Of a stretch of 64,000 nt of DNA, positions 162 to 60,382 are shown piece by piece. The notes under the pieces were generated by a model. That model worked only from the letters and a program-made list of their open reading frames with translations. It ran no database searches and was not told the DNA's origin. Every line of letters starts with the position of its first letter. Positions within the stretch are counted from its first letter, which is position 1. Origin of the DNA: a virus (taxonomy: Duplodnaviria > Heunggongvirae > Uroviricota > Caudoviricetes). The stretch lies in the IMG/VR virus record IMGVR_UViG_3300009856_000010, positions 1-64,000 of that record; one strand, given 5' to 3'. Made by a program: the position numbers and the translations under genes.

Positions 162-3100
162 TCATTTCCTTGCGTACTGTTTAGTCATAGTACTATTCTC
201 AAAAAAACGCAAACCATTAGATGGGTCAAGGTATGTATGCAAGTCTATATATCCATTACCAGCAGACCCTGCTATAAATTGATTCAATGTTGTACCAATC
301 AAGCTTTGTTCACTTGTGATAGTAGTGCCTGAATAATTTCGTAACCGAAGCCCTGCCATTGTTCCATCGCCCATGAATGCGATTTTTATAATTTCCATAT
401 TGTTTGCATTATACATTATGAATGAATTGCTGGCCGGGTCTAACACCATTCTGACCCCATTCTTGCGTGTGGTTACCTTGCCAATAAAGTCACCAGCCAT
501 TTCAACATTTCCATTTTCATCCCAAAATATATTCCCATCGGCAAGATGTCCGCTACCTATTGCCCGGATAACATTCTTCGCATTATTCGGGGATGGGCCA
601 CCCATCCAAAAATATCCTTCGCCGTCAAAGCCACCAGTAACATTGCCTTGACTATCTTTTATTAGGAACTGATTACCTTGAACAAATTCCAGTATTGCAT
701 CTTTTGCTATAATCAGTGAAGTGAATATGGCATTCACATTCAGCCCGAATGCTTCCCAGTACTCGGCATTTCCGGGGGCGTTTGCTGTTGTGCTCGTATG
801 TGTTTTAAGACACTTATACGCCTGCCACCCCGTTTGAAGCGAATTATCCCGTACAAGTGCTATATTGATATAGCGTGTACCTGAAGTCAATGCTTCATCA
901 TTGCGGTATTCATTGTTTAATCCCCATTCTGATTTTATCATAAGGCAACCGGGAATACCATCCTTACCAGAATCACCCGTAACACAAACACCCTCTGTGC
1001 GTGTGATGTTACCATCCGTATATGTGATAACCGAACGAGCCCATATATACCAGCCGGAGGCGGAAGATGGACGTGTAGTACTCCAGCTACCATCTACCAA
1101 TAATGTGGCAGATGAAGACCTGTAATACTCTTCAATCATCGACCGTATACCTACACCATTTTCTCCATTTTCTGCGGAAAGCTCATATTCATCGGTATTT
1201 CGTTCACCGGTTAGGATATATCTCAATGTTTTACCACCATCCTGAGTTTGCAATATTCGATTACCATCTTTGTCGGTCATTGTCCAAAGTGGAGGGTTTA
1301 TTGTTCCATCCATATTCTTGCATATCCACGTTGCACCACCCATACGAACCATTCCCAGATAAGGAACCCGCAGTCCTGTAGACCAGTCTCCAATGAGAGA
1401 GACACTATCTCCATCCTTTCCTTTTTCTCCTGAAACACATATTTCCGTTGTAGTTTTTGAAGTTCCATCTGTATATGTGATAACCGAACGTGTCCAATAG
1501 TACCAGCCGTTTTTCCAGTCCGGACGATTCTCAGTCCAGCTTCCACCTGCAAGTATTTGAGGAGAAGAAGATAGATAATACTCTTCAACGATAGATTGAA
1601 TTCCTATACCATCAATACCTGTGGGTAAACAAAACGGTTCTGACTCAGTTTCTGAATTATCGGTGTACACTGTTCTGGTTTTGCTCCAGATAAATTTCCC
1701 AGTTTCCCAATCAGGTGCAGTTGTTTGCCACCCGACAGTTGGAGCAACCGTCTGGCTTGTGGAGACTGCGTATAGTACATCCGTTTCTTTCACCCCTTTC
1801 AGAATCGCTGTAGGATCAAGGAGTAAATCCCAATCTTCCGATTGAACATATTCATGAATGATATATCCCCATGTTGCATCCCCTTTCTGTTTTTGCAATA
1901 AGCGACTTCCATTTTCGTTTGTAACAAGTGGATATGGTGCTTCTGAAGTCTCTTTGTTGCTAATGAAAACCTTTCCGGCAAATGAGAGTATGGTATTCTT
2001 CGCATAAGGAGTACCTTCTGTATTCCATGCTGGGGCACTGGTTATTCCGGTCCCATCATCCCCATCCTTTCCAGGCGCAACCATTATTACCCAATCTGGA
2101 TTATCTTTATCAGGGATAGTTTTTGTTCCGTCCTCATTGATGCATAACCATACGCCACCCTCATGACTAACTTCATCATAAAAGTTCACTTCATCGCCCG
2201 ATTTCCAATTTGGTAAATAGTTCGGTAATGGCGCAGTGGTTCCATCCGGTTTAATTTGATGGATGGCACCAGTCATATAAATACTATCTAAATAAGCCGA
2301 ATAACCGGTCATGGTTTTTCCATGCACGGTCATGTTAGATAAATCACCTGTTTGCTGTGCGATATTCGCTGCACTTATCTCAAATGTGGTTTGTTTCCAC
2401 AGCATACGAGTATACGTCCTGGTTTCATATACTGAAGTCTGGCGGTCTTTGTTACTCACATTCCCATAGACAACAAAATGCATCATCTCACTCGGATGAT
2501 AGCTATGTTTCCATCTTTCACTTATGGGACGAAGATTATATTTAAACTGTTGATTTCGGTCTCCAACAACTTCAGTTATCAGGAAATAAGCAGTGTAGAA
2601 TCCAGCATACGTACGATTGCCACAACTATCGTCCATATCTTCGGTAGCGTTGATCGTTGGCTCAAGAGAGTGAAAAATACCCATACAGATATCATTCACC
2701 GCCACCGCTCCTATTTGACCATCTTGCAAATCCAAATCAACAGTACGTGTATTCATATCTATCGACTTGATAACACCGCCACCCGGGGCTCGCCACTTAT
2801 CTCCTAAACTAACTTCTACACTATTGAATATAATTTCTGGAACAACGAGTTTGCGACGAATAAAGAGAGACTCAATTTCCCCATTAGCATATTGATCAAA
2901 AAAACCACCAACTCCAGTAAATCCAGGAACAAAATCCTTTCCTATTTTGAGTCCTTTCAAAAAAGTAATTAAACCTTCTGAAATATCATCGAATAACTTG
3001 CTTAAAAAACGTTCGCCTACATATTTACTTGTTACTAATGAGGTATCGCTTACAGGAACATCCTTATCACTATCCGTACTCCTCTTTATGTCATTAATCT

Positions 3101-3644
3101 CTTTATCCCGCAAAAAGAATTTATTTACAACAAAAGATGAAAATGTTTTTAGGACCTCTATCAAGTCTGTAACCTTATTCCATCTAAACATCTGACGCCA
3201 TTCGGCACCTGTTTCTTCGTTCGCAAACTGATTCGTATTTAGAATACCAGTTTTTAAAACGTCCTCCCAGTACCGATCTACTTTAGTGCCACCGGAGTTC
3301 GCAGATGCACTAATCTTTCCTAAATAGATATAGTAATAATCACCAGAGCTTAATTCAACTTCTTCGTCTGCATAAACTACCAAAGCCTTTGTGCCTACCT
3401 TTTCCAACCTAGCATACACATACTTGGCGTCAACAGTTTCAAAATAGCTATTGAAGGCTTCCAGCGTCCACTTCCGGTAATTTCGACTGGCATCGTAGTC
3501 AATAACACCTTGTACAAATGCCATAATTACGGAACCGCCCAATACTGTCACCTGATTATAATCTGGATCTTCCAACGCGTTCAACGTAAACGTTAAAGCT
3601 GATGGAGACATCCAATAATTACTTTGAGTGGTTACAATTGCCAT
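162..3644 (-). CDS. tail fibre / receptor-binding protein (1160 aa) with an internal ~65-aa tandem domain duplication
   Basis: Largest distal ORF of the structural string with Gly/Ser/Thr/Asn-rich composition. Two copies of IEEYYxSSS..GSW..RP..GWYxWxRSVITYTDG (nt ~1000-1140 and ~1440-1590). Late-promoter motif lies immediately upstream. Confidence 0.45.
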   Translation of the reverse strand: MAIVTTQSNYWMSPSALTFTLNALEDPDYNQVTVLGGSVIMAFVQGVIDYDASRNYRKWTLEAFNSYFETVDAKYVYARLEKVGTKALVVYADEEVELSSGDYYYIYLGKISASANSGGTKVDRYWEDVLKTGILNTNQFANEETGAEWRQMFRWNKVTDLIEVLKTFSSFVVNKFFLRDKEINDIKRSTDSDKDVPVSDTSLVTSKYVGERFLSKLFDDISEGLITFLKGLKIGKDFVPGFTGVGGFFDQYANGEIESLFIRRKLVVPEIIFNSVEVSLGDKWRAPGGGVIKSIDMNTRTVDLDLQDGQIGAVAVNDICMGIFHSLEPTINATEDMDDSCGNRTYAGFYTAYFLITEVVGDRNQQFKYNLRPISERWKHSYHPSEMMHFVVYGNVSNKDRQTSVYETRTYTRMLWKQTTFEISAANIAQQTGDLSNMTVHGKTMTGYSAYLDSIYMTGAIHQIKPDGTTAPLPNYLPNWKSGDEVNFYDEVSHEGGVWLCINEDGTKTIPDKDNPDWVIMVAPGKDGDDGTGITSAPAWNTEGTPYAKNTILSFAGKVFISNKETSEAPYPLVTNENGSRLLQKQKGDATWGYIIHEYVQSEDWDLLLDPTAILKGVKETDVLYAVSTSQTVAPTVGWQTTAPDWETGKFIWSKTRTVYTDNSETESEPFCLPTGIDGIGIQSIVEEYYLSSSPQILAGGSWTENRPDWKNGWYYWTRSVITYTDGTSKTTTEICVSGEKGKDGDSVSLIGDWSTGLRVPYLGMVRMGGATWICKNMDGTINPPLWTMTDKDGNRILQTQDGGKTLRYILTGERNTDEYELSAENGENGVGIRSMIEEYYRSSSATLLVDGSWSTTRPSSASGWYIWARSVITYTDGNITRTEGVCVTGDSGKDGIPGCLMIKSEWGLNNEYRNDEALTSGTRYINIALVRDNSLQTGWQAYKCLKTHTSTTANAPGNAEYWEAFGLNVNAIFTSLIIAKDAILEFVQGNQFLIKDSQGNVTGGFDGEGYFWMGGPSPNNAKNVIRAIGSGHLADGNIFWDENGNVEMAGDFIGKVTTRKNGVRMVLDPASNSFIMYNANNMEIIKIAFMGDGTMAGLRLRNYSGTTITSEQSLIGTTLNQFIAGSAGNGYIDLHTYLDPSNGLRFFENSTMTKQYARK

Positions 3645-3659: not shown

Positions 3660-3704
3660 TTTTATGCAAATATAGATTACACACTGAACCGAGCAGGGAC
3701 AAGG
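3660..3704 (-). promoter_or_regulatory. late promoter: GTCCCTGCTC -33-like element + 16 nt + TATATTTG (-7 box, TAnnTTTG), ~23 nt before the tail-fibre ATG
   Basis: Minus-strand reading of 3667-3674 gives TATATTTG. 3691-3704 gives CCTTGTCCCTGCTC. The same architecture recurs upstream of the tape-measure gene and the 12071 gene. Confidence 0.45.
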
Positions 3705-4740: not shown

Positions 4741-7314
4741 TTAAATTGAATAAAAATCTATTTCCACCAATTCGATTCCTTTCTGTACGGATATATGGGT
4801 TTTTACTTTATTGATCCATCCTATGTATCCGCCTATATTATATCTGCGGTGCCAATTCTGAGGAATATCCATGAGTTCTGAAACTTCGCAAAGCAAACGG
4901 ATGGTGTATCGCTTACGATTGAGCATGAAATGTGCATGCTCGGACATAAACGTGTCGAATAATCCGCGACTACGGACTTTGGTTACAATGTTTCCTTGTG
5001 AGTCGCGGATGTCATCGTTACATAAGATTTTACCGTCTACTTCTTTGTAAGCACGAACTTTTAAAGAAAAACGTTCGTCATCGCCAATGCCTGGGGCAAC
5101 ACCATTATAATCGTATTCGCGAGCCCAATTATCAATAGAATCACTACTCATAGCATACTGACCCACGGTCATGCGCCACTTACTGTTTCCAAAACCATCG
5201 TAGTTGTAGTCATATCGTTCAATTTCACTATCCGAACCACCACCGCGCATAATGGCTACTGAAAGTCCCCAGTCGTATGTTTGAAGCGGAGAGTTCCCGT
5301 CATCGGTAGATGTTGGATCGTAACTCTCGTCTGTTTTAAGATGGCCGCGGACGATGAAGTCTGCATGATCGCTACCAACAAGATAGTCCAAGAATGCTTC
5401 GATATTTTCATGCCACATGTCTTCGTCTATAAATGGAGCAAGTATAGACCCTTTCTTGTCACTGTTTATACCGGAAATAGTATGGCTAATACCCGTTTCT
5501 GAATCTTTGAAGCTATAGCTGTTGGTCGAACCGACATCTCTTTGGTTTTTCGCATTGACATCGTTGAATATAACCGGTTGAAACTCACTGGACAGATCTA
5601 TTATAAAATCTTCGTTCTCTTCGCTACAATCACCAATTTCCACACCTTTGTACGCTCCAACTTCAAATAGGGCAGGTTTTAATTCATTGACGGTTTCGGC
5701 ATCTGCATTTACTTTTAACCGGTATGCATTGCCTGTGTTTACGTCAATATAACAAGTCAAGTCTGAACTGGATTGTTTCTTTAATATTTCTAGATACGTT
5801 TTCGTACTGTCTACTTTGGAGTAGTCCGTATAGTCGTAGTTAGTATCATAATCTTTCTGTCCGGACCGGATAATATCACTTTTCTCCTTATTCGAACTCT
5901 CGGCATCATACTTCATCCGGAATCCCGTGATTTTCTCTACCACTTTGTTTACAGATATCACCTGGCACTTGAGTTTAACAGAATCTTCTTCATTCCGGTA
6001 TAAATCACGAATAAGTCGTGGAGTGACGCTTTGTGCTTCGTAGTCGAGCATAAACTTAATACCAAATGATGCCCACAATGAATCTATAATAGAACTGACA
6101 GAGGCATCTGGGAAGTTCTTTGAATTGGCATACATAGTCATAATATTGGCTGCGATATTCATTACTGGATCTTTTGGAATGAATCGGGCTGAAACAATTT
6201 CTACGCCATCAACTTTTTGCCCTACGGTATAAAGTTTTCCATCAATAATAGCACTGGTTACTTCTTTTGTTGGGTTATAAGTTAATTCTAAACTGCCACC
6301 CGTACTGCGGGAAGATAACCAACGATTTATTGCAGTAATAGATGTAAAGTCAAATTCTGAGGTAGGCTTACTTGGAAACTTTCGTTCTAAATCATACTTG
6401 TGGTGCGTAGTGAAGAATGCCAACCGGGATAAATCTCCTACACTTAGCAGATTTGTATTGCTGTATGATAGCCCCAAATATTGGAATAAACAATCTAAAA
6501 AATATAATACATAAAAGCACAGTCCACTTTGCGGGCGATCGGCTTCCAGTACATAGTATGGATCATAGGTGTCTTTTGTACTTACTTTATCTCCAGACGT
6601 TCCGTCTTCCTCTTTCTCATAATGTGTATAACACACACGCGCATTACAGTATGGTCTTTGTGGATAACCGTCTGTCACATTAATGAAATGTTCTTTTATG
6701 GATGGGCGACCATTCTTTCCTTTATTTGCCACCTGTGTCGTTTCATTCACAACATTACATATACCAGGAAAGGAAAACCCTAATGCCTGTAATTCAAAAG
6801 CATTTGCAACCGTTTGAAATTGCATTTCATTATCCTTATAGTATTTAGTGGACTTTTTTCCTCGATATCCTACTTCCACGTCGTACCGATATTGAAACTC
6901 CGCATATACATTGCCAATCATTTCACCAATCTGGATTTTTTCTTTCAGCGGAATATCCTGGCAATTCAATTCGGTAATCATATCTGTAAGCGAACGGACG
7001 GTAGAAATCATGGAGAACGAAATGTCCGAATCCAGTTCCTGTTCCTCACTGATTTGTAAGCGTCCACTGCGAAAAGGCATACCATCGGCTATAATCTGCA
7101 TGGGGGAGTGTTCCAACTCCACGGCACGCATATCACTCTTTTGATCGTCCAAGTTTTTAAGTAGCTTACGGTTTCCTTCCATGGGGACGGTAGATTCGTA
7201 GGCAAATGACTCGTGGTCGTTGAAGTAGGGGTTTACATCTTCTATGTCAATTCCGAATTCATCCGGGAGCGTCATATATTCATCATTGACACGTATAGCT
7301 AAATGGTCGTTCAT
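4741..7314 (-). CDS. large hypothetical structural protein (857 aa), tail/baseplate candidate
   Basis: Long ORF immediately upstream of the fibre-proximal genes with ATGA start/stop coupling to its neighbour; no catalytic motif recognised. Confidence 0.3.
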   Translation of the reverse strand: MNDHLAIRVNDEYMTLPDEFGIDIEDVNPYFNDHESFAYESTVPMEGNRKLLKNLDDQKSDMRAVELEHSPMQIIADGMPFRSGRLQISEEQELDSDISFSMISTVRSLTDMITELNCQDIPLKEKIQIGEMIGNVYAEFQYRYDVEVGYRGKKSTKYYKDNEMQFQTVANAFELQALGFSFPGICNVVNETTQVANKGKNGRPSIKEHFINVTDGYPQRPYCNARVCYTHYEKEEDGTSGDKVSTKDTYDPYYVLEADRPQSGLCFYVLYFLDCLFQYLGLSYSNTNLLSVGDLSRLAFFTTHHKYDLERKFPSKPTSEFDFTSITAINRWLSSRSTGGSLELTYNPTKEVTSAIIDGKLYTVGQKVDGVEIVSARFIPKDPVMNIAANIMTMYANSKNFPDASVSSIIDSLWASFGIKFMLDYEAQSVTPRLIRDLYRNEEDSVKLKCQVISVNKVVEKITGFRMKYDAESSNKEKSDIIRSGQKDYDTNYDYTDYSKVDSTKTYLEILKKQSSSDLTCYIDVNTGNAYRLKVNADAETVNELKPALFEVGAYKGVEIGDCSEENEDFIIDLSSEFQPVIFNDVNAKNQRDVGSTNSYSFKDSETGISHTISGINSDKKGSILAPFIDEDMWHENIEAFLDYLVGSDHADFIVRGHLKTDESYDPTSTDDGNSPLQTYDWGLSVAIMRGGGSDSEIERYDYNYDGFGNSKWRMTVGQYAMSSDSIDNWAREYDYNGVAPGIGDDERFSLKVRAYKEVDGKILCNDDIRDSQGNIVTKVRSRGLFDTFMSEHAHFMLNRKRYTIRLLCEVSELMDIPQNWHRRYNIGGYIGWINKVKTHISVQKGIELVEIDFYSI

Positions 7315-7961
7315 TCGTCAAGTGGTTTTAGGTTCAATTTCTTATTGCCATTCATGTAGATTTTGCGGGGGGAATGTGCATATACTTCTGCATCGCCAAT
7401 AGCGGTAATACTTTGCCATCCATTAGCATCGACGGTAGAAGTACCGCCTGCCACAAGTGTGCTGCTGTCGTAGGTATGGATAAAGTTGTTACCTTGCGCA
7501 TTGCCGGAACTGCGGTCGTGCAGATATCCTACGGCATTCCCATCAAATGTTCCGGAAGAGAATTCACGCAAATGAACAATAGATTCTTCTTTGGCAAACA
7601 CCTTAGCGTGCCCACTGGCATCCACCTCTGACTTCCCGTAAACATAGCTTTCCGAAGTTCCACCTACATAGATTGTTTCTTTTGGATTGTGTATAAACAC
7701 GATTCCACGGTCTGCATTGCAATTATAAAATAACCCTTGTTTTTGAAATTCTTCCGCATTGGCTTCGTAGTGTGCTTCCAAGAAAGGGAATACATCGTCA
7801 GAGTGCATGCCACGCCCCAATAACTCGGCTATATATTTTTTGAATATGGCAACCATTTGGTTAAAGTTGTCTACATTCATAGCATCTTTAAATCCGGGTA
7901 TGCAAGAACCGTTCTTTCTTGCTATATCCAGTACTGCATTTTTTGCTTCTTCAAATCCCAT
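7311..7961 (-). CDS. hypothetical protein (216 aa)
   Basis: ORF with overlap coupling to the downstream gene. Confidence 0.3.
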   Translation of the reverse strand: MGFEEAKNAVLDIARKNGSCIPGFKDAMNVDNFNQMVAIFKKYIAELLGRGMHSDDVFPFLEAHYEANAEEFQKQGLFYNCNADRGIVFIHNPKETIYVGGTSESYVYGKSEVDASGHAKVFAKEESIVHLREFSSGTFDGNAVGYLHDRSSGNAQGNNFIHTYDSSTLVAGGTSTVDANGWQSITAIGDAEVYAHSPRKIYMNGNKKLNLKPLDE

Positions 7962-9940: not shown

Positions 9941-11749
9941 TTATACTTTAGTTTCTTCCATTCCGTTTTTATTCCTGTCCAGTGTGGTAAGTGTCATTTG
10001 TTTTACCCGCCAAACAAGGTGAGAGTCCCATTCGTTGAACTGGCTGATTACCTCCAACGCTTTGAGTACAATGTTCTGTGTGGGTGCCATTTGTAACTGT
10101 TTCAACAGATACATTTCGCGTTGATAGGTACCCCCGCTACTTCCGCTTCGTCCGGGAACTGCACCAATCAGATCGGGGTGTATTTCGAGGGCAAAGAAGA
10201 TGATGCTGGCTACTTCTTCGAGTTCTGTTTTGTTTGCATCGGCCGTACCTTTGCTGTTGTAGGGTATTTCGACAATGCGGTAGGCATCGTGCTGTTTGCC
10301 ATCGGCTCCGGTGAAGGAGAATGATAACAAAGACTGCCCACTGTTTCCACGATCATTCAGAAACGTATTTATTTCATCGAATATCTGGTCACGAATGGCT
10401 CCCCGTTCTGCTGATGTATTGCATCGCTCTTGTTGGTACAGTTTGTTCAGATAATCCAGATGCACATAGATAATTCGCCCGAAAGAGTTTGAATTCTTCT
10501 TCCGTGTGGCCCGGTCCGAAATAATGGTACTGGCATAGTTGTATATATCTCCTCCGAAGATACTCCACCACGATGGCTGTGGATAATATGGCCGACCGAG
10601 GGTAGGGTAGTAGGAAGGGAGAATGAACCGTGTTGGACGATCGGCAATCTTTGTTTTACGCAAGCGGGCTTTGCGTACATCACCGTCCAATGTATTAAGC
10701 GGATGGGTGGGGTCGAGCGCGCGGATGGCAGACATGGTAAGATCTTCTTTCGTATCTACCAACTTGTCGTCCTGCCAACGGTTGCTGACGTACACGTAGT
10801 TTATGCGGTTATCATCGTCCATTCGTTCCAACCGGCAGGTGAGGGAACTGCGATAATCCATGCCTGTGGCCTTGGGCTTCCACACCCGGCTATCCTTGGT
10901 CAATGGATCCTGGCTGAGCTGGATTTCAGGGAAGCATATACCCAGCGAACACATGTCGCCAAAGAGTTTGAGCAAGATAAGGTCTAGGTTGTTCTTTTTG
11001 GTAAAATCGGATACATCTTTGCTGGTTTGTTCCCAGATGGCGTAAGCTTCTTCGGCATCTGCGATTTGCTTCAGCAAACGGTCTTCTATTTGCTGGTTTA
11101 CCCTTATTTCGGCATCACTTGAGAATGAATCTTTGGGTGTGTTCATTCCGAAGCTTTGTTCATCTTCCCGTTCTTCAATGTTTTCTTTCTGGCGTTTGGG
11201 CAGTTCAATGCCTTTTTCTTTGCAGGCGGCATAATGTTGGCTCAGTGCCAGTTGTAAAGAAAGTATCTGCCCCTCAATAAGCAACCCCGCATTGGCGTAA
11301 TCCACTTCTTCGGTTTGAAGTGAACCATTAGAGTAGTAAGAATGACGATACTTTGGTTTCGGACCTAATCCGGCAGCGGTATCGGTATTGAATTTAATAC
11401 CGGCAGCGGTGTAGGGCAGGAGAGAAGTGAGCAAAGCAATGATGTTAGGCAAGCGATTTCCTGCTCCCCATTCCATCCAACCTTTACCGGGAGTACCTAT
11501 TGCATCGTATCCGGTTTGTTCGTTTCCAACGGATGCAAATATATCTCCGCTTTTGGAAGCAGCTTTTTTGCTGTCTCCGTGGATAACGACGTTCAGAACA
11601 TCGCTCCATCCCGGTGTGTCGGCATTGGCTTTTCCTCCAAAGAAGTGGTGCGCGGGAAAGGCGACATAGCCGTCGACCATAGCCTGTTTAATCTGCTTTG
11701 TCGCCGATGCGCCCGCTGAAGGTTTAGGTTTATTTCGTTTTGATGCCAT
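9941..11749 (-). CDS. putative portal protein (602 aa)
   Basis: Size and position (first large gene after terL once the moron island is skipped); no diagnostic motif, so call is inferential. Confidence 0.35.
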   Translation of the reverse strand: MASKRNKPKPSAGASATKQIKQAMVDGYVAFPAHHFFGGKANADTPGWSDVLNVVIHGDSKKAASKSGDIFASVGNEQTGYDAIGTPGKGWMEWGAGNRLPNIIALLTSLLPYTAAGIKFNTDTAAGLGPKPKYRHSYYSNGSLQTEEVDYANAGLLIEGQILSLQLALSQHYAACKEKGIELPKRQKENIEEREDEQSFGMNTPKDSFSSDAEIRVNQQIEDRLLKQIADAEEAYAIWEQTSKDVSDFTKKNNLDLILLKLFGDMCSLGICFPEIQLSQDPLTKDSRVWKPKATGMDYRSSLTCRLERMDDDNRINYVYVSNRWQDDKLVDTKEDLTMSAIRALDPTHPLNTLDGDVRKARLRKTKIADRPTRFILPSYYPTLGRPYYPQPSWWSIFGGDIYNYASTIISDRATRKKNSNSFGRIIYVHLDYLNKLYQQERCNTSAERGAIRDQIFDEINTFLNDRGNSGQSLLSFSFTGADGKQHDAYRIVEIPYNSKGTADANKTELEEVASIIFFALEIHPDLIGAVPGRSGSSGGTYQREMYLLKQLQMAPTQNIVLKALEVISQFNEWDSHLVWRVKQMTLTTLDRNKNGMEETKV

Positions 11750-12099: not shown

Positions 12100-12142
12100 A
12101 AGCAAAGTTAATATGAGGGCAGGATGGGGTAGGGACAAGGTT
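12100..12142 (-). promoter_or_regulatory. late promoter: TTGTCCCTACCC + ~15 nt + TAACTTTG (-7 box)
   Basis: Minus-strand reading of 12104-12111 gives TAACTTTG; 12127-12140 gives CCTTGTCCCTACCC. Confidence 0.4.
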
Positions 12143-12162
12143 TGATGGGGGAGAAAAGTGCC

Positions 12163-12280
12163 AAAAAATGGCACGGTGAGGTACAAGAAAACCTCACGGT
12201 GCGGTTTTAAAATCTCGCACCGAGAGGAATCGAAGTTTCGCACTGTGCCATTTTTCGATACCGCACCGTGCCGTTTTTTA
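12163..12280. repeat. nested-palindrome intergenic element, copy 1 (5 CACGGTGCG/CGCACCGTG units; outer arms AAAAAATGGCACGGTG...CACCGTGCCGTTTTTT)
   Basis: Read directly; related copies at 24645-24786, 38495-38607 and 62664-62781. Confidence 0.6.
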
Positions 12281-13715: not shown

Positions 13716-14723
13716 TTAATCTTTCCAAACATCAAAATGCCTCCAGTTCCCATCTTCTGGAAAACCCATGTCTTTGATCATTACTAATTTTCCTGCATTC
13801 TGAATTAAATCTATCAATGCGGATTTAAAATTACTATCTGGGCTAATGATCTTTAAAATATATTGGATGCAACAAAGAAAAGCAAATAGCTTATTATTTC
13901 TTGTTGATTCAATGATGTCTCGGCTTAGAAATGAGTAATTAGTATTATAAGGAAGGGTTATGTTAATAATGAATCGTTTGTTCCATATACGACTATGATG
14001 CGCACAGCAATTTCTAAGAGTGGAAATCCCATGAAGCCAATTAGCAAAAACCTTCCAATTGGTTAATCCAAATTCATAGGCTAACTCTTTCTTGTTATCA
14101 TCGTTTATTAGAAGTTCATACAATCGACTAAGTGTACCTAAAGTTATAGTTTCCAATGTCATCCAGGCAGGAGGCATTTCAGGACTTGAATATCTGTTAT
14201 AATAATGTTTTATAAAATCCTCATTACTGCGACCAACTTCTTTCTCAATATCATCAGCCAATATATTGAAATGGAAAACTTCTTCTTTTTCATAACCGGT
14301 TGTTCCATCTTCCTTTTTAACTTCATTAGTCACAAAATAAGATTTATCCAAAAATAAGGATTCATCCTCAAACCAATGACTGTCATTCGTCTTATCGCAA
14401 TATATTTGAGTCATTTTAGCACGAACAGCTACTTCTATTTTTTCTATTGCATTAAAAATCAACGAACGTAACCGTCTGTCAAAGCAATATAAATCAATTA
14501 TATCACAGAAATGAATGTCTTTTCTAAAAAAACGGTGATCAGCATCCTCGTTTTCATTATCCTGAAAAGGGAAAGTATATGCTCTTAACCGGTAATAACT
14601 TATATTTGAAAGGTATGATTTAGCCAGTTCTTCATCATCAACAATAAGTCCTCTCGACTTCAATTTTTCAAGTTGTTGTTCAATAGATATTGGCGTTTTC
14701 CGGTATGGTATTTTTTCTTCCAT
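13716..14723 (-). CDS. Abi_2 family (AbiD/AbiF-like) abortive-infection protein (335 aa)
   Basis: Motifs YYRLRAYTFPF and LRNCCAHHSRIWN match the conserved Abi_2 signature (R..AHH.R.WN). Confidence 0.55.
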   Translation of the reverse strand: MEEKIPYRKTPISIEQQLEKLKSRGLIVDDEELAKSYLSNISYYRLRAYTFPFQDNENEDADHRFFRKDIHFCDIIDLYCFDRRLRSLIFNAIEKIEVAVRAKMTQIYCDKTNDSHWFEDESLFLDKSYFVTNEVKKEDGTTGYEKEEVFHFNILADDIEKEVGRSNEDFIKHYYNRYSSPEMPPAWMTLETITLGTLSRLYELLINDDNKKELAYEFGLTNWKVFANWLHGISTLRNCCAHHSRIWNKRFIINITLPYNTNYSFLSRDIIESTRNNKLFAFLCCIQYILKIISPDSNFKSALIDLIQNAGKLVMIKDMGFPEDGNWRHFDVWKD

Positions 14724-14853
14724 TTAAAGAGCAAAGGTTATAAAACTCGAAGACCTCCCCGGGTGCGCTGATCTAACGGGAAGCGTGGGAGGTCATATTG
14801 AGTACAAAGATAGGATTTCTTTTTGAATTACCAAAATATTTCCATAAAAATAT

Positions 14854-16848
14854 TTATCCCCTTCTTGGTAAACACATCCCCTCCATACTATGCTGAAAAT
14901 ACTTCACGCCAACAAATAGACTATCAAAAGCATCGCTCCCGTCAGTACGGTACTGCAACAAATTTTGTTCAGTTTCGCCTAACTTTTCACCTGCCTTATT
15001 CTTTTTGAAACCGCCATAACCATTTAGTACTTCGGCATTTTCCATCGCCACAATCAACGATTCGTTATTGTCTACATTGATCCGAATAGCGGGATAAGAG
15101 ATGCCTGCCAATGATTCGTTTATATCTTTGAATTTCAATGCATGTTCCATCGGGCGACCCATGTCTATGGCGTTCACCTCCCAACCCGCACGTGATAGTT
15201 CTTCGATAACCACATCCTTAAAGTCTTGCTGTCCCTCGATGGCATATCCGCGAAACTTAGCTGTACTATCATAATAGTAGTTTACTTGTCGGCACGTTTG
15301 AAGGTGAGGGGCGTAATACTTTGTCCAGTCTTTCATCAATTCACGCAACTTTCGCTCGTTCTTTACATACATGGAACTAAGTACCATCAACGCATCGCCG
15401 TGTGCCTCCGGGCAATGTTGCACCTGCCCCGTTATAACCCAGCTAATGTTCGCCCCATAATCCAGTGCAATGTGTAGAGGAAGATTACGTTCCACATCTC
15501 CGTCTAAAGTGCAGTTCTCTTTCATGTTCTGCAATTCAACGAAGTTGGGCGTAACGTAATCGGTGTCTATTTTCCTTCCACCAACGATGGTACTTGCCGT
15601 TTTCTTAACCATACTATTCTCAATAGCCTGGCAAGAACTTGGTACATAACCATGTTCATTTACAACATCCAGCATGGCATAAAAACCGTCACCCGATTTT
15701 TTCATCTTCTGGTTAAGTATGGAAACCGCGAATAGGAGCGGTGGAAGCGCGCGTTTCATGTCTGCAATATAAGATTCTCCGAGTAAATCAATGTTATCAA
15801 GACTCGATGCTTTATAAAAGGCAAACGTATTGCATTGCATCTTCTTAATGTGCTTTCTAACCTTGTCAGACTTTTGTAGCATTTGCAACTCTGCATATTC
15901 CTCTCTGGTAATGAGGTATTCGTAGTTGAAAAGCAATTCGGCATCTTGAGAAGAAATGACATTGTAGTTTACCAACATATCAATGTTTTGCTTGTTAATG
16001 CCCGGTTTTGGCAACATCTTGAAAACACCCTGCCTTACATGGCAAGCATTGGCCACTAATTGTATTTCTTCGCGTTTCTCTTCGGATACGGTTAATACCT
16101 TGTATCCCATTTTCTTGGCTTTGCGAAGCAATTCGTTGAAGAACATAATTCTACCGGCATATTCATCTAATTTCCCTTGCAATTCTTTAGATGTTTTTCC
16201 GGCAAACTCTCCATCTTCAATAACCTTCAGGTTTTGCTCTTCTTCTTTCTCCATCCAATTCTCTTTTTGTGAAATGGCGGCATCACTAACAAAGAGAGTA
16301 CCTTTATAGTAAGGATTTTGGTCGCTAAAACGAGAATCTCCCATCGGATGAATGATGCCCGAAAGCGTTGCCTGCACTTCGGCATCAAACTTGCTTTTCT
16401 TTATGAATCGGGCTTCGTCCAGGATAAAGTAATTTACCGTCATGGAGTTGGCAGAACCACGTACCTCCAAACTGACTAAGTGCCACACAAAGCCATTAAA
16501 GAAGGTAATACAATGGCTCCAATCTTTCGGTTTGATAATAGGGCGGGGAATATTTAGTTTGGTAGGTGGCTGCCCCCACCAGAAATGCTGACCTTCACGC
16601 CAGCCCCAGAAACGTTCAATAGCCGCCAACGTGGCCGGAACGGTACGGGTAAACAACTGTTTCCTACTGTTTCCTGCCCAGATACCTGCACCTTGTGGCA
16701 TGGAAGACGTAACACGTCCGCTTTGTGGACCGATAATACCATCGGTTTTACCGAAACGGCGAGCTGCTATTACCCGAATGTGTTTTGCTCCGGAGTAGTA
16801 AATACGTTGCTGCATCGGGTTCATGTAGACCTCACGACGTTCAGCCAT
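14854..16848 (-). CDS. terL: terminase large subunit (664 aa)
   Basis: P-loop AARRFGKTDG near the N-terminus; Walker-B-like YFILDEARF; size and neighbourhood typical of TerL. Confidence 0.6.
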   Translation of the reverse strand: MAERREVYMNPMQQRIYYSGAKHIRVIAARRFGKTDGIIGPQSGRVTSSMPQGAGIWAGNSRKQLFTRTVPATLAAIERFWGWREGQHFWWGQPPTKLNIPRPIIKPKDWSHCITFFNGFVWHLVSLEVRGSANSMTVNYFILDEARFIKKSKFDAEVQATLSGIIHPMGDSRFSDQNPYYKGTLFVSDAAISQKENWMEKEEEQNLKVIEDGEFAGKTSKELQGKLDEYAGRIMFFNELLRKAKKMGYKVLTVSEEKREEIQLVANACHVRQGVFKMLPKPGINKQNIDMLVNYNVISSQDAELLFNYEYLITREEYAELQMLQKSDKVRKHIKKMQCNTFAFYKASSLDNIDLLGESYIADMKRALPPLLFAVSILNQKMKKSGDGFYAMLDVVNEHGYVPSSCQAIENSMVKKTASTIVGGRKIDTDYVTPNFVELQNMKENCTLDGDVERNLPLHIALDYGANISWVITGQVQHCPEAHGDALMVLSSMYVKNERKLRELMKDWTKYYAPHLQTCRQVNYYYDSTAKFRGYAIEGQQDFKDVVIEELSRAGWEVNAIDMGRPMEHALKFKDINESLAGISYPAIRINVDNNESLIVAMENAEVLNGYGGFKKNKAGEKLGETEQNLLQYRTDGSDAFDSLFVGVKYFQHSMEGMCLPRRG

Positions 16849-19271: not shown

Positions 19272-19415
19272 ACTATTTTTATGATTTATTGCATTACTGT
19301 ATTACAAAGATGAGCGTGCGCACGGGGAAAGTAGGGACACGAAAAAACCGCTTAGTAGGGTAAGCGGCTCTCTCAATGAAATGACAAAAATTAAAGTCGA
19401 AAAGGAGGGTATATG

Positions 19416-22944: not shown

Positions 22945-23199
22945 ACAATTGAGGTTTGGGTTATTTTTAGCGAAGTTCGTTTGTGTATGCTCGCTTGCAG
23001 GGACTTAAAACGGGGGTAAAACCTCAATCGGCGGGAAAAACAAAAGCCCGGCTATCATCGCTGACTGCCGGGCCGATTAACCTTTAATTAAAATGTCGAA
23101 AATTTGAAGTTGTTTTGTTGTACTAACCTAAAATCCTAACCATTATGAAGAAATCTTTTTCAAAAACAAAGTTACGTACACCTTTATATATATAGGGAC

Positions 23200-23715
23200 T
23201 TACCCTACAATAGGCTGAATGCCATTGATGTTGTTTATGTCGAAAGTAAGGGTAGTGGTGTAGCTGTCCGTTATGTTTTCTTCCGGGGTGAAGCGGTAGG
23301 CGTGTTCGGGACAGCGGACAAAGTAGAACTTCCCGTCGGATGCTTCGAGCAGCAAATCGTGGTCGGTTATGATCAAGTCGTCAAGGTATTCGGATTGCTC
23401 TACGGCATTTTGCATGGTTTTGAATTGTAGGTTTACGGCGTAGGTGTATCCGGCAATTGTTTTTTGCGGAGTGGCTTTTACGGTCCCTTTCTCGTCGATA
23501 AGAAAATCTTTCTCGTCGGACAGTTCTTCGGAATCGGTATAGGTGATAAATCTTTTTCGTCCGGCAAGGGAAGGAAGTCCGATTTCAAACAACGTGGTTG
23601 TTTTCTTGCGAACGTTAAAAGGAACCTGATGGTTGAGTTCACCAAAGGGGAAGGGGTAAACCGCGACGATGTCGAAGTATTGCTCGGTGGTGTAATTGCA
23701 TGAATTGTTTGGCAT
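23200..23715 (-). CDS. hypothetical protein (171 aa)
   Basis: ORF upstream of the protease gene. Confidence 0.3.
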   Translation of the reverse strand: MPNNSCNYTTEQYFDIVAVYPFPFGELNHQVPFNVRKKTTTLFEIGLPSLAGRKRFITYTDSEELSDEKDFLIDEKGTVKATPQKTIAGYTYAVNLQFKTMQNAVEQSEYLDDLIITDHDLLLEASDGKFYFVRCPEHAYRFTPEENITDSYTTTLTFDINNINGIQPIVG

Positions 23716-23848
23716 ATTGTTGGGTTTTTAAAGTGAATATCCGGAGTGACACGCGAGTGACACGCAACCCGCCTTTTTTGGGTGTTTTTTAACTTTTATT
23801 ATTAGCATCTGTTAATGAATGTGATAGAAAACGCAGTTATTTCTCTAT

Positions 23849-24541: not shown

Positions 24542-24644
24542 ACTAAAGTTTAAATATGATTACAAAATAGTGACAAGTAGAGTAGTGGGGTAGGGGAGTA
24601 TGACGTGTTATTGCAAAGGTAGTGTTTTCTCTTTAAAAAACCGC

Positions 24645-24786
24645 ACCGTGAGGTATGAAAAAACGGCACGGTGCGGTTTGCGAAACTGCCACGGTGAGAT
24701 AAAATGAACTGCCACGGTGCGGTTTTTTAATGTCGCACCGTGAGAGATTTTGATACCGCACCGTGCCAGTTTTTTAGCGGTTTCAG
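24645..24786. repeat. nested-palindrome intergenic element, copy 2 (6 units)
   Basis: Read directly; begins AAAAAACCGCACCGTGAGG and ends GATACCGCACCGTGCCAGTTTTTT. Confidence 0.6.
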
Positions 24787-32617: not shown

Positions 32618-32721
32618 CTATAGAAAAGCGCAAATAGGACGAACCTGGCTGTAGTTGCTCTTATAGTTGCTGCTCGTATCACCATCGTACCAATTGAGCA
32701 ACCAAGAGGACGACGCTGATT
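32618..32721 (-). repeat. DGR variable repeat VR1
   Basis: Aligned to TR 34630-34733; 7/7 substitutions in the core fall at TR adenines (coding strand). Confidence 0.75.
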
Positions 32722-44359: not shown

Positions 44360-44704
44360 CTACTCGCTTTTAGAATTAAGTTTCTTTATAGCAAATCTGC
44401 ATCCAGCAATAAATACATCACGTAATAGCACCGTTAAATCGGGGGATGCGTGTTGGCGTTCCGCATATTCTTGCGCTGCAACCTCCATGTCGACATTATC
44501 ACGCCAACCGAATTGCACTTCCATCTCCTTAAAGCGTAAAATCAATTCGCCTACAAGTAAGTCGTAGTCTTCGTTAGGGCGAGCAGGGACATGGCGCACA
44601 GGTACTTCTAGCGAGCGGAACATGTTGTCAGTCAGAATATCTACTTTTTTCAGTAGTTCGCTGTCAGACATGGTACATTTTCTAAAATTTACAATTCCGT
44701 TCAT
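44360..44704 (-). CDS. hypothetical protein (114 aa)
   Basis: ORF. Confidence 0.3.
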   Translation of the reverse strand: MNGIVNFRKCTMSDSELLKKVDILTDNMFRSLEVPVRHVPARPNEDYDLLVGELILRFKEMEVQFGWRDNVDMEVAAQEYAERQHASPDLTVLLRDVFIAGCRFAIKKLNSKSE

Positions 44705-51175: not shown

Positions 51176-51516
51176 TCGTATCTTGCTTTTAAATTTAAAA
51201 ATTTGCTCCAGCGGATGAAATGTAACTCATACCCCATGGCAAAGAACATTTCCGTAATCATGCGCTCCAGATTCTTGTGCGACACCAATTTATGATCGAT
51301 ATACTTCATCGTCACCGTTACCCTATAATTGGAGTATCCTCGCCGATAGGGTTCATCTTCACTTGCGACTACACTAAACGACTTCATCACTCTTTGATTA
51401 AAGAGAGCCAGAAATACCCGCTCCACCTTTTCCTTCTCTATCAGTCGAAAAGAAAAGCGTTCTATGCAATCCGAGTCTTCGTCAATTTCATGTACGGCAA
51501 AGGCATCATCTCTCAT
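51172..51516 (-). CDS. hypothetical protein (114 aa)
   Basis: ORF. Confidence 0.3.
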   Translation of the reverse strand: MRDDAFAVHEIDEDSDCIERFSFRLIEKEKVERVFLALFNQRVMKSFSVVASEDEPYRRGYSNYRVTVTMKYIDHKLVSHKNLERMITEMFFAMGYELHFIRWSKFLNLKARYE

Positions 51517-52124
51517 ATTCTTTCATCTTTAACCAGGTTTATCAACTCTGCCAAATTGGTTGTTCCGGTACGCTTATATATTCGATTCATAAAGTTTTGA
51601 ATGCTCGATTTGGTTAACTGCATTACATCGGCGATCATCCCCGAATTTGTGGTACCCGATTGTATAAGATGCAACACCCTGCGTTCTTGCGGCGTAAACC
51701 CAAACTCCCTTTTCGCCCCACAGATAACCATAAAGGAATCTTTGTTCCGGTCGGCATATCCGTTCCATGGGCAAAAGGTTTGGCACCGGCATTGCCGGGG
51801 GTATTCCATTTTGAATCGAGTACCATCAAAATCCAGTTCGTGATCCAATTCACCAAAACAACAGGATAGGATAATGTGAACCACACGTAATACATACTGC
51901 CTTCTGTTTTGCTTAATCACCGCAAACAGACTGTTATTATATAGCTTTATATGTTGTTCTACGGCTTTTATCATGGTAGGATATCGACTGGATATTTCTT
52001 TCAATAGTTCCTCGCCGAATTCATATCCCTCCTGACTTTCTAAAGTGAAAGAAGTTTTGGGTTCAGCAGTCGTTATTTCCGTGATACCATTAAGCGATAT
52101 GTATGCTTCAAACTTACGCATCAA
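51513..52124 (-). CDS. LuxR/GerE-type HTH transcriptional regulator (203 aa)
   Basis: C-terminal segment LTPQERRVLHLIQSGTTNSGMIADVMQLTKSSIQNFMNRIYKRTG. Confidence 0.45.
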   Translation of the reverse strand: MMRKFEAYISLNGITEITTAEPKTSFTLESQEGYEFGEELLKEISSRYPTMIKAVEQHIKLYNNSLFAVIKQNRRQYVLRVVHIILSCCFGELDHELDFDGTRFKMEYPRQCRCQTFCPWNGYADRNKDSFMVICGAKREFGFTPQERRVLHLIQSGTTNSGMIADVMQLTKSSIQNFMNRIYKRTGTTNLAELINLVKDERI

Positions 52125-54131: not shown

Positions 54132-54138
54132 CCCCTAC

Positions 54139-60339: not shown

Positions 60340-60382
60340 ATGACAAAGCTACAATGGCCATCAGCCGGAGCAGGGACACGGC
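60340..60382 (-). promoter_or_regulatory. late promoter: GTGTCCCTGCTCC + 16 nt + TAGCTTTG (-7 box) upstream of the tape-measure gene
   Basis: Minus-strand reading of 60344-60351 gives TAGCTTTG; 60368-60379 gives GTGTCCCTGCTC; same spacing as the tail-fibre promoter. Confidence 0.45.

What the first reader, a model, noticed from the sequence alone, without database searches (positions are those of the whole stretch)
3660..3704. Conserved late-gene promoter architecture TGTCCCT(G/A)C(T/C)C - N15-16 - TAnnTTTG
Upstream of the tail-fibre gene (3660-3704), the 12071 gene/portal block (12100-12142) and the tape-measure gene (60340-60382), the minus strand carries a GTCCCT-containing element at the -33 position. 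It is followed at a fixed 15-16 nt by a Bacteroides-type -7 box (TATATTTG, TAACTTTG, TAGCTTTG) 23-35 nt before the ATG. Weaker GTCCCT copies precede the 382-aa gene (19331-19341) and the prohead protease (22998-23006, 23178-23186). The replacement of the usual -33 TTTG by TTGTCCCTGCTC suggests a phage-specific late sigma factor or activator site.
Basis: partly seen in the sequence, partly recalled or inferred. Interest (0 to 1): 0.6.

Follow-up and report, generated by a model that had tools for sequence, protein, structure and literature searches.

The report
Conserved late promoter of Bacteroides phages
A five-base box (GTCCC and close variants) lies exactly 21 bases upstream of the normal Bacteroides promoter box in front of every virion-gene operon of this uncultured gut phage and its relatives, and is most likely where a phage-made activator turns on late genes.

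Summary
Three minus-strand sites (3667-3701, 12103-12137, 60344-60378) read TGTCCCT(G/A)C(T/C)C-N16-TAnnTTTG exactly. That is 3 exact matches of the refined pattern against 0.22 expected, and 4 against 0.11 with two mismatches allowed.

Comparison with about 70 related phage loci (1.26 Mb) decides the matter. GTC(C/A)C sits upstream of TAnnTTTG at exactly 21 nt in 53 unique sites, against 5 or fewer at any other spacing. 49 of 56 relatives carry the element upstream of the portal gene. 63 of 74 unique sites precede homologues of this phage's virion genes, and none has the canonical -33 TTTG.

A second, unrelated phage group uses GTCC(T/C)-N21/22-TAnnTTTG.

Best reading: a late promoter class that keeps the host sigma-A -7 box and replaces the -33 box with a site for a phage-encoded activator. 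No sigma gene was found. The best, unproven, candidate is an early 202-aa protein (51513-52121) with a cysteine cluster and a LuxR/NarL-type helix-turn-helix. It was not detected in all motif-bearing phages.

I rate it a new variant of a known kind, of moderate interest.

The parts
3667..3701 (-). S1: late promoter of the tail-fibre gene (162-3644). TGTCCCTGCTC-N16-TATATTTG, starting 3 nt after the stop codon of the 344-aa gene.
   Evidence: Sequence; exact pattern hit; tail-fibre PHROG hits; 11 unique orthologous sites before tail-fibre homologues in relatives.
12103..12137 (-). S2: late promoter of the 105-aa gene, the portal gene and the five genes after it (12071 down to 3705). TGTCCCTACCC-N16-TAACTTTG.
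   Evidence: Portal assignment: 24.5% identity to the annotated portal of Polaribacter phage Leef_1. 49 of 56 related loci carry the element upstream of the portal gene.
60344..60378 (-). S3: late promoter of the tape-measure gene (54139-60309). TGTCCCTGCTC-N16-TAGCTTTG.
   Evidence: PF10145 hit. Conserved at N21 before the tape-measure gene in L007, L008/L010, L013, L209, L210 and L211, although the flanks have diverged.
19305..19339 (-). S4: late promoter of the operon 382 aa, 189 aa, 241 aa, terminase (19271 down to 14854). TGTCCCTACTT-N16-CATCTTTG, with a weakened -7 box.
   Evidence: The orthologous promoters in L015, L016, L017, L209 and L211 also read GTCCC-N21-CAnnTTTG. 11 unique exact sites precede 382-aa homologues.
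22971..23004 (-). S5: probable late promoter of the operon prohead protease, 424 aa (capsid?), 182 aa (22944 down to 19416). GTCCC-N21-GAACTTCG, a poor -7 box.
   Evidence: protease phrog_53. Relatives have GTC(C/A)C-N21-TTTCTTTG before the protease gene. 5 unique exact sites precede protease homologues.
23167..23199 (-). S6: GTCCC-N20-TAACTTTG, an atypical spacing. It is followed by about 90-125 nt with no ORF and then the 23045-23074 terminator. It may drive a small RNA; its status is uncertain.
   Evidence: Only 2 of the family-wide sites use spacing 20, against 53 at 21. No Rfam hit.
44581..44591 (-). S7: exact copy of TGTCCCTGCTC inside ORF 44360-44704, with no -7 box. Unexplained; it may be an orphan binding site.
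   Evidence: The ORF has no homologue in the relatives, so conservation could not be tested.
23746..23762 (-). Tandem TGTCAC-N5-TGTCAC (11 bp start to start), 28-45 nt upstream of the 171-aa gene (23200-23715), with no -7 box at the fixed distance. Probably further binding sites for the same factor.
   Evidence: The tandem is conserved in L017, L019-L021 and L210-L211 although the proteins are only 27-30% identical. There a -7-like box lies 9-10 nt upstream of it, an operator-like position.
19341..19374 (-). Intrinsic terminator hairpin plus U-tract, ending just upstream of S4.
   Evidence: Folding energy -19 kcal/mol, z = -7.3.
23036..23074 (-). Intrinsic terminator hairpin plus U-tract, about 30 nt upstream of S5.
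   Evidence: Folding energy -20.6 kcal/mol.
12158..12174 (-). Terminator-like hairpin plus T-run, about 20 nt upstream of S2. It is the last unit of a 23-bp-period repeat array.
51513..52121 (-). Candidate trans-factor: a 202-aa protein that is the second gene of the early operon, which runs divergently from a cI-like HTH gene. It has an N-terminal domain of unknown fold, four conserved cysteines and a C-terminal LuxR/NarL/GerE helix-turn-helix.

Best explanation
These are the promoters of the phage's late (virion) transcription units. Each unit starts, usually just after the terminator of the unit before it, with (T)GTC(C/A)(C/T), exactly 21 nt of unconserved spacer, then the Bacteroidota sigma-A -7 box TAnnTTTG. 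A short A-rich leader and the first gene follow.

Proposed mechanism:
- Host RNA polymerase with its primary sigma factor reads the -7 box.
- The canonical -33 TTTG is absent, so the promoter is weak or silent on its own.
- A phage-encoded DNA-binding activator made early occupies the GTCMY box, at about -38 to -34, and recruits or stabilises the polymerase. This switches on the head, tail and packaging genes.
- The arrangement resembles class II activation or the T4 MotA-type architecture.

The most likely activator in this window is the Cys-cluster/LuxR-type protein at 51513-52121, but its identity is the weakest step.

What is shown: the motif, its fixed spacing, its conservation and its association with virion genes.
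What is inferred: use of host sigma-A, dependence on an activator, late timing, and the identity of the activator.
For: The motif is real in the window.

Family-wide spacing: 53 unique sites at N21 against 5 or fewer at any other spacing, and control 5-mers give flat profiles.

Without conditioning on the -7 box, 55 of 123 intergenic TGTCMC sites have the -7 box (one mismatch allowed) at N21, against 10 of 450 coding sites.

The spacers and flanks have diverged while the box and spacing are kept. 49 of 56 loci carry the element before the portal gene, and it precedes the tape-measure gene in 7 phages.

63 of 74 unique sites precede homologues of the window's virion genes, and 0 of 74 have TTTG 17-23 nt upstream.

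185 kb of early-region loci hold only the tape-measure sites plus one GTCAT site.

In the window, complete canonical TTTG-N17-23-TAnnTTTG promoters lie before accessory genes instead: the Abi-like gene 13716-14723 and the plus-strand gene at 12405.

Terminators lie directly upstream of S2, S4 and S5.

The host is Bacteroides: a relative is integrated in Bacteroides sp. GCA_028690125.1. TAnnTTTG is that phylum's sigma-A -7 box (PMC7366714).

Activator rather than sigma:
- no sigma domain in any early protein
- a tandem GTCAC-N6-GTCAC with no fixed -7 box is conserved before the 171-aa gene

Candidate protein: LuxR/NarL fold, early-operon position next to the cI-like gene, and homologues in 65 fetched loci.

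An early 'transcriptional regulator' next to the tape-measure gene of the Quimbyviridae prophage LoVE has been hypothesised to activate middle-late genes (bioRxiv 10.64898/2026.06.25.734096).
Against: There are no transcription data, so start sites, timing and dependence on a factor are all untested.

The LuxR-type protein was found only in the window's own subclade, in a separate group of about 100-kb phages, and in one locus (L137) of the second motif-bearing group.
- It was not detected in the more distant portal subclades, nor in most loci of the second group, that clearly carry the motif. Those loci cover only about 10 kb each side of the probe gene, and the collection searches depend on shared patterns or words.
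- Its recognition helix varies while the motif is conserved.
- The family is small: about 30-40 full-length representatives at 50% identity.

The about 100-kb phages that encode a homologue show no motif in the roughly 20 kb sampled.

The same motif in two unrelated phage lineages could instead point to a host factor.

S5 and S6 depart from the consensus, and S7 is intragenic.
Confidence: 0.55

Rival explanations
1. The activator is a different phage protein, not the LuxR-type one. One example is the conserved 230-aa protein of unknown fold encoded at 23849-24541, immediately upstream of the late region. Another is a small uncharacterised early protein. The promoter logic stays the same and only the trans-factor differs.
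For: - The 230-aa family occurs in several portal subclades that carry the motif (L017, L019-L024, L040, L048, L070, L071, L209-L211) and in the about 100-kb group.
- Late activator genes often sit just before the late operons; this rests on established knowledge of lambda Q, P2 Ogr and Mu C.
- The LuxR-type protein is not detected in many motif-bearing phages.
Against: - The 230-aa protein has no recognisable DNA-binding domain.
- The single-sequence structure model was unusable, with pLDDT 48.
- Its distribution is also incomplete in the fetched loci.
Confidence: 0.2
2. The box is read by a host component rather than a phage protein. That could be a host transcription factor, or host sigma-A region 4 accepting GTCMY as an alternative upstream element. 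The phages would then simply exploit a pre-existing host promoter type.
For: - The same GTCC(C/T)-N21/22-TAnnTTTG architecture occurs in a second phage group with different gene content.
- No single phage regulator was found in all motif-bearing phages.
Against: - The genome-wide start-site study of B. thetaiotaomicron reports only the canonical motif and an unrelated near-palindromic PM2 (PMC7366714).
- A scan of reference genomes with TTTGTCCC-N21-TAnnTTTG gave mostly intragenic, chance-like hits, also in Bacteroidota (19 of 22 inside long ORFs).
- A constitutive host-read promoter would not give temporal control of virion genes in a temperate phage.
Confidence: 0.15
3. A dedicated alternative sigma factor, phage- or host-encoded, recognises both boxes: GTCMY as its -35 element and a TAnnTTTG-like -10 element.
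For: - The short, asymmetric box at a rigid distance from the downstream element is typical of sigma recognition.
- Only 64 kb of an 83-kb contig was visible, so a sigma gene could lie outside the window.
- Divergent phage sigmas such as T4 gp55 escape profile searches (established knowledge).
Against: - No Sigma70_r2 or r4 hit in any window protein scanned, even at E up to 5 for the unknown early proteins.
- The downstream box is indistinguishable from the host primary-sigma -7 box.
- The tandem GTCAC sites without a fixed -7 box do not fit a -35 element.
Confidence: 0.08
4. A chance or non-regulatory repeat, for example a remnant of duplication or a recombination or packaging signal.
For: Three identical 11-mers within one genome could come from duplication. 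The hexamer GTCCCT alone is not enriched.
Against: The rigid spacing to the -7 box, the orientation toward genes, the intergenic location, and conservation over phages with only 37-63% portal identity and unalignable spacers.
Confidence: 0.02

Closest known systems
Canonical Bacteroidota primary-sigma (sigma-ABfr) promoter: TTTG at -33 and TAnnTTTG at -7 (Bayley et al. 2000, as summarised in PMC7366714)
   Same: - The same -7 box.
- The same distance from that box to A-rich, Shine-Dalgarno-less leaders and start codons.
- The same phylum of host.
   Different: - The -33 TTTG (17-23 nt upstream) is absent in 74 of 74 sites.
- A GTCMY box at a rigid 21 nt replaces it. The published -33 box has variable spacing.
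Phage T4 middle promoters: MotA box at -30 plus the sigma-70 -10 element, activated by sigma appropriation through AsiA and MotA (PMC6755090, PMC2988021)
   Same: - The architecture matches: the host primary-sigma downstream element is kept.
- The upstream element is replaced by a short, asymmetric, phage-specific box at a fixed distance.
- The arrangement defines a temporal gene class.
   Different: - No MotA or AsiA homologue was found.
- The box sequence and position differ (about -36 against -30).
- The class is late virion genes rather than middle genes.
- The host phylum is different.
- Remodelling of sigma is pure speculation here.
LuxR/NarL/GerE-family activators acting at sites that overlap the -35 region (class II activation; for example GerE at late sporulation promoters, LuxR or TraR at their boxes, NarL heptamers TACYYMT). 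The site details are from my own knowledge.
   Same: - The candidate protein has this DNA-binding fold.
- The target is a short pyrimidine-rich box overlapping the -35 or -33 position.
- Tandem copies occur at one site.
   Different: - It has no receiver or autoinducer domain. Instead it has a novel N-terminal domain and a four-cysteine cluster.
- Most promoters carry a single 5-7 bp box rather than a dyad.
- Binding was not tested.
Dedicated late-gene activators of temperate phages (P2 Ogr / P4 Delta zinc-finger proteins, Mu C and Mor, lambda cII at -35-less promoters). From my own knowledge.
   Same: A phage-encoded activator made earlier in the cycle turns on promoters that lack a good upstream element. 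It may also bind metal: Ogr is a Cys4 protein, and here four cysteines are conserved.
   Different: - No sequence or fold relationship was detected.
- Those activators bind further upstream, or as dyads or direct repeats that flank -35.
Candidate family 'Quimbyviridae' (PMC8008677) and its prophage LoVE (bioRxiv 10.64898/2026.06.25.734096)
   Same: - A Bacteroides host.
- A large temperate genome.
- A DGR nested among methyltransferase and defence genes.
- An early 'transcriptional regulator' next to the tape-measure gene, hypothesised to activate middle-late genes.
   Different: - Membership was not tested by phylogeny.
- No nucleotide or close protein match in the GenBank phage collection.
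- Neither paper describes a promoter motif ('promoter' occurs 0 times in one and once, unrelated, in the other).

Membership tests
Bacteroidota sigma-A (sigma-ABfr) promoter | -7 box TAnnTTTG | tested here: met
   Exact in S1-S3. One mismatch in S4 and two in S5.
Bacteroidota sigma-A (sigma-ABfr) promoter | -33 box TTTG about 17-23 nt upstream of the -7 box | tested here: not met
   0 of 74 unique sites have it. Where the window does have the complete canonical pattern, it lies before accessory genes.
Bacteroidota sigma-A (sigma-ABfr) promoter | Transcription starts a few nt downstream of the -7 box and depends on sigma-A holoenzyme | not testable with these tools
   Needs dRNA-seq, 5'-RACE or in vitro transcription.
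T4-type sigma appropriation (MotA/AsiA middle promoters) | Host primary-sigma downstream element kept, with the upstream element replaced by a phage-specific box at a fixed distance | tested here: met
T4-type sigma appropriation (MotA/AsiA middle promoters) | Homologues of MotA and AsiA are encoded | tested here: not met
   No such Pfam or PHROG hit among the window proteins scanned. About 19 kb of the contig lies outside the window.
T4-type sigma appropriation (MotA/AsiA middle promoters) | Remodelling of sigma region 4 and activator contact with sigma | not testable with these tools
   Biochemistry or cryo-EM is required.
LuxR/NarL/GerE-type transcription regulator (protein at 51513-52121) | C-terminal four-helix LuxR-type HTH domain | tested here: met
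LuxR/NarL/GerE-type transcription regulator (protein at 51513-52121) | Known N-terminal regulatory module (receiver domain, autoinducer-binding domain, or none) | tested here: not met
   The N-terminal 140 residues match nothing in the PDB or the viral structure library. Four conserved cysteines (87, 111, 117, 134) lie within them.
LuxR/NarL/GerE-type transcription regulator (protein at 51513-52121) | Sequence-specific binding to the GTCMY box | not testable with these tools
   The co-occurrence test was inconclusive. The protein is absent from the fetched parts of many motif-bearing phages.
Sigma-70-family factor (ECF or phage late sigma) | Sigma region 2 (core-binding and -10 recognition) domain in a phage protein | tested here: not met
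Candidate family Quimbyviridae | Placement in the TerL, portal and MCP trees of Benler et al. | not tested
   No reference sequences were retrievable. Only shared traits were seen: a DGR among methyltransferases and a Bacteroides host.

The most novel reading that the evidence does not exclude
A Bacteroidota counterpart of sigma appropriation. A small phage protein with a sigma-region-4-like (LuxR-type) HTH and a Cys4 metal site would act as a surrogate upstream-element reader at about -36. It would redirect host sigma-A polymerase from TTTG promoters to GTCMY promoters. This switch would be shared by several otherwise unrelated lineages of abundant gut phages.
Probability: 0.15. Interest if true: 0.75.

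Novelty: new variant of a known kind. Interest (0 to 1): 0.5.

Why it matters
Transcription control in phages of Bacteroidota, the dominant Gram-negative phylum of the human gut, is almost unknown outside the crAss-like phages, which bring their own polymerases.

What this motif offers:
- A simple, sequence-only rule, GTC(C/A)(C/T)-N21-TAnnTTTG. It marks the late operons in a large clade of uncultured Bacteroides phages (more than 600 portal clusters at 90% identity) and, with a slight variation, in a second group. This helps annotate genomes in which most proteins have no known family.
- A concrete, testable model of the lysogeny-to-lysis transcription cascade: early activator to late promoters.
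- A candidate activator to clone.
- If the promoters are silent without the phage factor, a compact orthogonal promoter/activator pair for engineering Bacteroides.

It is not a new principle. Activator-dependent late promoters that keep the host -10 element are textbook in other phyla.

Tried and rejected
**Searches that found nothing useful**
- Megablast of 24 kb against GenBank phages: no match.
- Portal query as a single protein against IMG/VR: no match.
- Exact 11-mer composite scanned in IMG/VR: 6 hits, all intragenic chance matches in unrelated contigs.
It says nothing about host use.
- No tRNA and no Rfam family in the window.
- Literature searches found no description of this motif.

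**Attempts blocked by the tools**
- I could not fetch the remaining ~19 kb of the phage's own 83-kb contig. The two terminal window proteins are not on record.
A profile search against PDB sequences found nothing.
- The AFDB fold library was unavailable.

**Tests that were inconclusive**
- Regulator and motif co-occurrence. Pattern scans with two regulator alignments found it only in the window's subclade and in a group of about 100-kb phages. Matching contigs by length between the portal and regulator hit lists gave only the two contigs already known. HMMs of the HTH alone and of the Cys region alone found no further copies in the second phage group apart from L137.
- Co-variation between recognition helix and box. 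GTCCC and GTCAC occur together within single phages, so the C/A difference is degeneracy, not specificity.
- The about 100-kb phages have almost no intergenic -7 boxes in the sampled region, so no alternative box could be derived.

**Readings rejected**
- That the TATCTTTG box at 14805-14812 drives the terminase gene. It lies downstream of terminase and drives the Abi-like gene.
- That GTCCCT at 86-91 is a site. It has no -7 box.

Full report
**1. The observation**

- S1 3701-3667: TGTCCCTGCTC-N16-TATATTTG
- S2 12137-12103: TGTCCCTACCC-N16-TAACTTTG
- S3 60378-60344: TGTCCCTGCTC-N16-TAGCTTTG

Statistics for the window:
- The composite pattern with up to two mismatches occurs 4 times against 0.11 expected from dinucleotide-preserving shuffles.
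- The fourth hit is S4 at 19339-19305, with CATCTTTG as its -7 box.
- The refined pattern GTCMY-N21-TAnnTTTG occurs 3 times exactly against 0.22 expected.
- Neither part is enriched alone: GTCCCT gives 12 hits against 20 expected and TAnnTTTG gives 53 against 61. The signal is in the combination, the orientation and the intergenic position.

Small corrections:
- The spacing is 16 nt in all three sites.
- The weak copy reported at 23178-23186 is really at 23194-23199 and has a spacing one base short (S6).
- A third exact TGTCCCTGCTC lies inside an ORF at 44581-44591 without a -7 box.

**2. What the window is**

The window is 64 kb of an 83-kb metagenomic contig of an uncultured tailed phage. 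It has no nucleotide match in GenBank phages.

Recognisable genes, almost all on the minus strand:

| Gene | Coordinates | Evidence |
|---|---|---|
| Tail fibre | 162-3644 | |
| Portal | 9941-11749 | 24.5% identity to an annotated portal, |
| Abi-like accessory gene | 13716-14723 | |
| Weak terminase match | 14854-16848 | |
| Prohead protease | 21391-22944 | |
| DGR with two lectin-like targets, among several DNA methyltransferases | 32618-36149 | |
| Sliding clamp, HU-HIG and DUF4248 genes | 38616-41377 | |
| 1197-aa primase-helicase-like protein | 46290-49883 | |
| Tape-measure protein | 54139-60309 | |
| cI-like HTH gene, plus strand, divergent from the operon starting at 52515 | 52636-53265 | |

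A relative is integrated next to host genes in Bacteroides sp. GCA_028690125.1. This is therefore a temperate Bacteroides phage.

Its traits resemble the candidate family Quimbyviridae (PMC8008677). I did not test membership.

**3. Comparative test**

I fetched three sets of related loci:
- around homologues of the regulator (L007-L014)
- around the portal (L015-L076)
- around the tape-measure gene (L209-L211)

Together with the window, the first two sets come to 71 sequences and 1.26 Mb, with portal identity of 37-63%.

Results:
- **Spacing.** The histogram of GTC(C/A)C upstream of TAnnTTTG has one spike at exactly 21 nt. It holds 53 unique sites, against 5 or fewer at any other spacing from 0 to 59. 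Four control pentamers give flat profiles.
- **Aligned sites.** Only (T)GTC(C/A)C and TAnnTTTG are conserved. T precedes the G in 44 of 52 sites. The 21-nt spacer is unconserved, and an ORF usually starts 13-61 nt after the box.
- **Unconditioned test.** Without requiring the -7 box, 55 of 123 intergenic TGTCMC sites have it at N21, against 10 of 450 coding sites.
- **Portal gene.** At the orthologous position upstream of the portal gene, or of the small gene before it, 49 of 56 loci carry the element. The boxes are GTCCC, GTCAC or GTCCT and the spacers cannot be aligned.
- **Tape-measure gene.** The same holds in seven phages. In L209-L211 the box directly follows a terminator T-tract.
- **Downstream genes.** Of 74 unique exact sites, 63 precede homologues of the window's virion genes: 105-aa gene 15, tail fibre 11, 382-aa gene 11, tape measure 6, portal 6, protease 5, others 9.
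- **Canonical -33 box.** None of the 74 has a TTTG 17-23 nt upstream.
- **Early regions.** 185 kb of early-region loci contain only the tape-measure sites and one GTCAT site.

The motif is therefore a conserved, functional, late-gene-associated element.

**4. Anatomy in the window**

The virion region is cut into units, each opened by one of these elements. S2, S4 and S5 sit just after a hairpin terminator.

| Promoter | Unit |
|---|---|
| S5 (23004) | protease, 424 aa, 182 aa, then terminator |
| S4 (19339) | 382 aa, 189 aa, 241 aa, terminase |
| S2 (12137) | 105 aa, portal, five more genes |
| S1 (3701) | tail fibre |
| S3 (60378) | tape measure |

Complete canonical TTTG-N17-23-TAnnTTTG promoters occur instead before accessory genes: the Abi-like gene and the plus-strand gene at 12405.

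If TAnnTTTG occupies about -12 to -5, as in published Bacteroides promoters (PMC7366714), then GTCMY lies at about -38 to -34. That overlaps the place of the -33 box. This positional statement is an inference, not a measurement.

**5. Who reads the box**

No sigma-70-family domain was found in any protein of the window. This includes the unknown early proteins scanned at E up to 5.

The one activator-type DNA-binding protein is the 202-aa product of 51513-52121. It is the second gene of the early operon, next to the cI-like gene. Its features:
- **N-terminus:** the first 140 residues match nothing.
- **Cysteines:** four conserved cysteines suggest a metal site.
- **Distribution:** its synteny is conserved. 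Homologues occur in 65 fetched loci, always in the same early position.

A 2026 preprint on the Quimbyviridae prophage LoVE reports an early 'transcriptional regulator' near the tape-measure gene and hypothesises that it activates middle-late genes.

One further observation favours a DNA-binding protein over a sigma element. A tandem GTCAC-N6-GTCAC, 11 bp start to start, lies upstream of the 171-aa gene with no -7 box at the fixed distance. It is conserved in relatives whose proteins are only 27-30% identical.

**6. Limits of the regulator assignment**

- The family was detected only in the window's subclade, in a separate group of about 100-kb phages, and in one locus (L137) of a second motif-bearing group.
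- It was not seen in the fetched parts of the more distant portal subclades, nor in most loci of the second group. Those loci cover only about 10 kb each side of the probe gene, and the collection searches depend on shared patterns or words.
- The recognition helix varies.
- The family is small.

A conserved 230-aa protein of unknown fold just upstream of the late region (23849-24541) is an alternative candidate. Nothing could be learned about its fold.

I put about 0.55 on the wider statement that a phage-encoded activator works with host sigma-A.

**7. A wider distribution**

The primase-helicase query also brought in a second, unrelated group of 30-40-kb contigs: L106, L108, L111, L131, L133, L135, L136, L142, L147, L155 and L159.
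- Each has two to four sites reading GTCC(T/C)-N21/22-TAnnTTTG.
- All are intergenic, in the sense orientation, and lie directly before operons.

The architecture is thus not confined to one phage family. This either widens the reach of the activator model or favours a host-encoded reader. The published B. thetaiotaomicron start-site study does not report such a class. My reference-genome scan was uninformative.

**8. Comparison with known systems and verdict**

In working principle the closest parallels are:
- T4 middle promoters: host -10 element kept, MotA box in place of -35
- class II activation by LuxR/GerE-type proteins
- late activators of temperate phages (Ogr, Mu C, lambda cII)

It is not a member of the canonical sigma-ABfr promoter class, because the -33 box was tested and is absent. 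It is not a member of the MotA/AsiA system, because no homologues were found.

I found no description of this motif in the searchable literature.

I rate it a new variant of a known kind. Interest is moderate.

Noticed in passing
window 12172-12268, 24642-24766, 38500-38604, 62674-62776: Four arrays of 3-5 copies (some only about 60-70% identical) of an 11-bp unit CAC(G/C)GTG(C/A)(G/C)GT. The period is a strict 23 bp, the orientation alternates, and A/T tracts flank the units. They fold into tandem hairpins and sit at borders between gene modules. The first ends 35 nt upstream of late promoter S2. Relatives carry different repeat units at the same place (L016 GTCTCGCAGTAGG, L018 TTGTTAAGT). 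They could be protein-binding arrays or compound bidirectional terminators.
   Followed up: partly
window 23746-23762 (minus strand): Tandem TGTCAC-N5-TGTCAC upstream of the 171-aa gene, conserved in L017, L019-L021 and L210-L211. In those relatives a -7-like box lies 9-10 nt upstream of the tandem. The same factor might therefore repress there.
   Followed up: partly
window 23040-23199 (minus strand): S6 (GTCCC-N20-TAACTTTG) is followed by about 125 nt without an ORF and a strong terminator. This may be a phage small RNA. It has no Rfam match.
   Followed up: partly
window 32618-36149: A diversity-generating retroelement: reverse transcriptase 33385-34863, bAvd 34827-35183, and two Lcl_C/lectin-like candidate target genes (35214-36149 and 32618-33394). 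It is nested among DNA methyltransferase genes, as described for 'Quimbyviridae'. The template and variable repeats were not mapped.
   Followed up: no
window 44581-44591: An exact third copy of TGTCCCTGCTC inside ORF 44360-44704, with no -7 box. The ORF has no homologue in the relatives.
   Followed up: partly
window 23849-24541: A 230-aa protein of unknown fold, conserved in several subclades and in the about 100-kb phage group. It sits just upstream of the late region, behind a -7 box (TACCTTTG; no -33 TTTG upstream) and one of the 23-bp repeat arrays. It is an alternative candidate late regulator.
   Followed up: partly
window 13716-14835: An Abi-like (phrog_2158) accessory gene between the terminase and portal blocks, with its own complete canonical promoter TTTG-N19-TATCTTTG. 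It is probably expressed from the prophage.
   Followed up: no
L011 about 7100-7900 and L016 (Bacteroides sp. JAQVBV010000010.1); window 54131-54139: In the integrated relative, host genes abut the DUF6562-like gene. The attachment site of this phage type therefore lies between the 3' ends of the tape-measure gene and the DUF6562-like gene. No integrase gene was seen in the window. In IMG/VR relatives (contig 3300045988_166558) the tape-measure gene sits instead between the replication and head modules.
   Followed up: no
L085-L105 and L161-L208 (IMG/VR contigs of about 100 kb): A separate phage group shares the module 133-aa protein, Cys-cluster/LuxR regulator, primase-helicase. The regulator is 25-30% identical and the primase-helicase 22-24% identical. 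This group has no detectable homologue of the portal. The genes are so tightly packed that almost no intergenic -7 boxes exist in the sampled 20 kb.
   Followed up: partly
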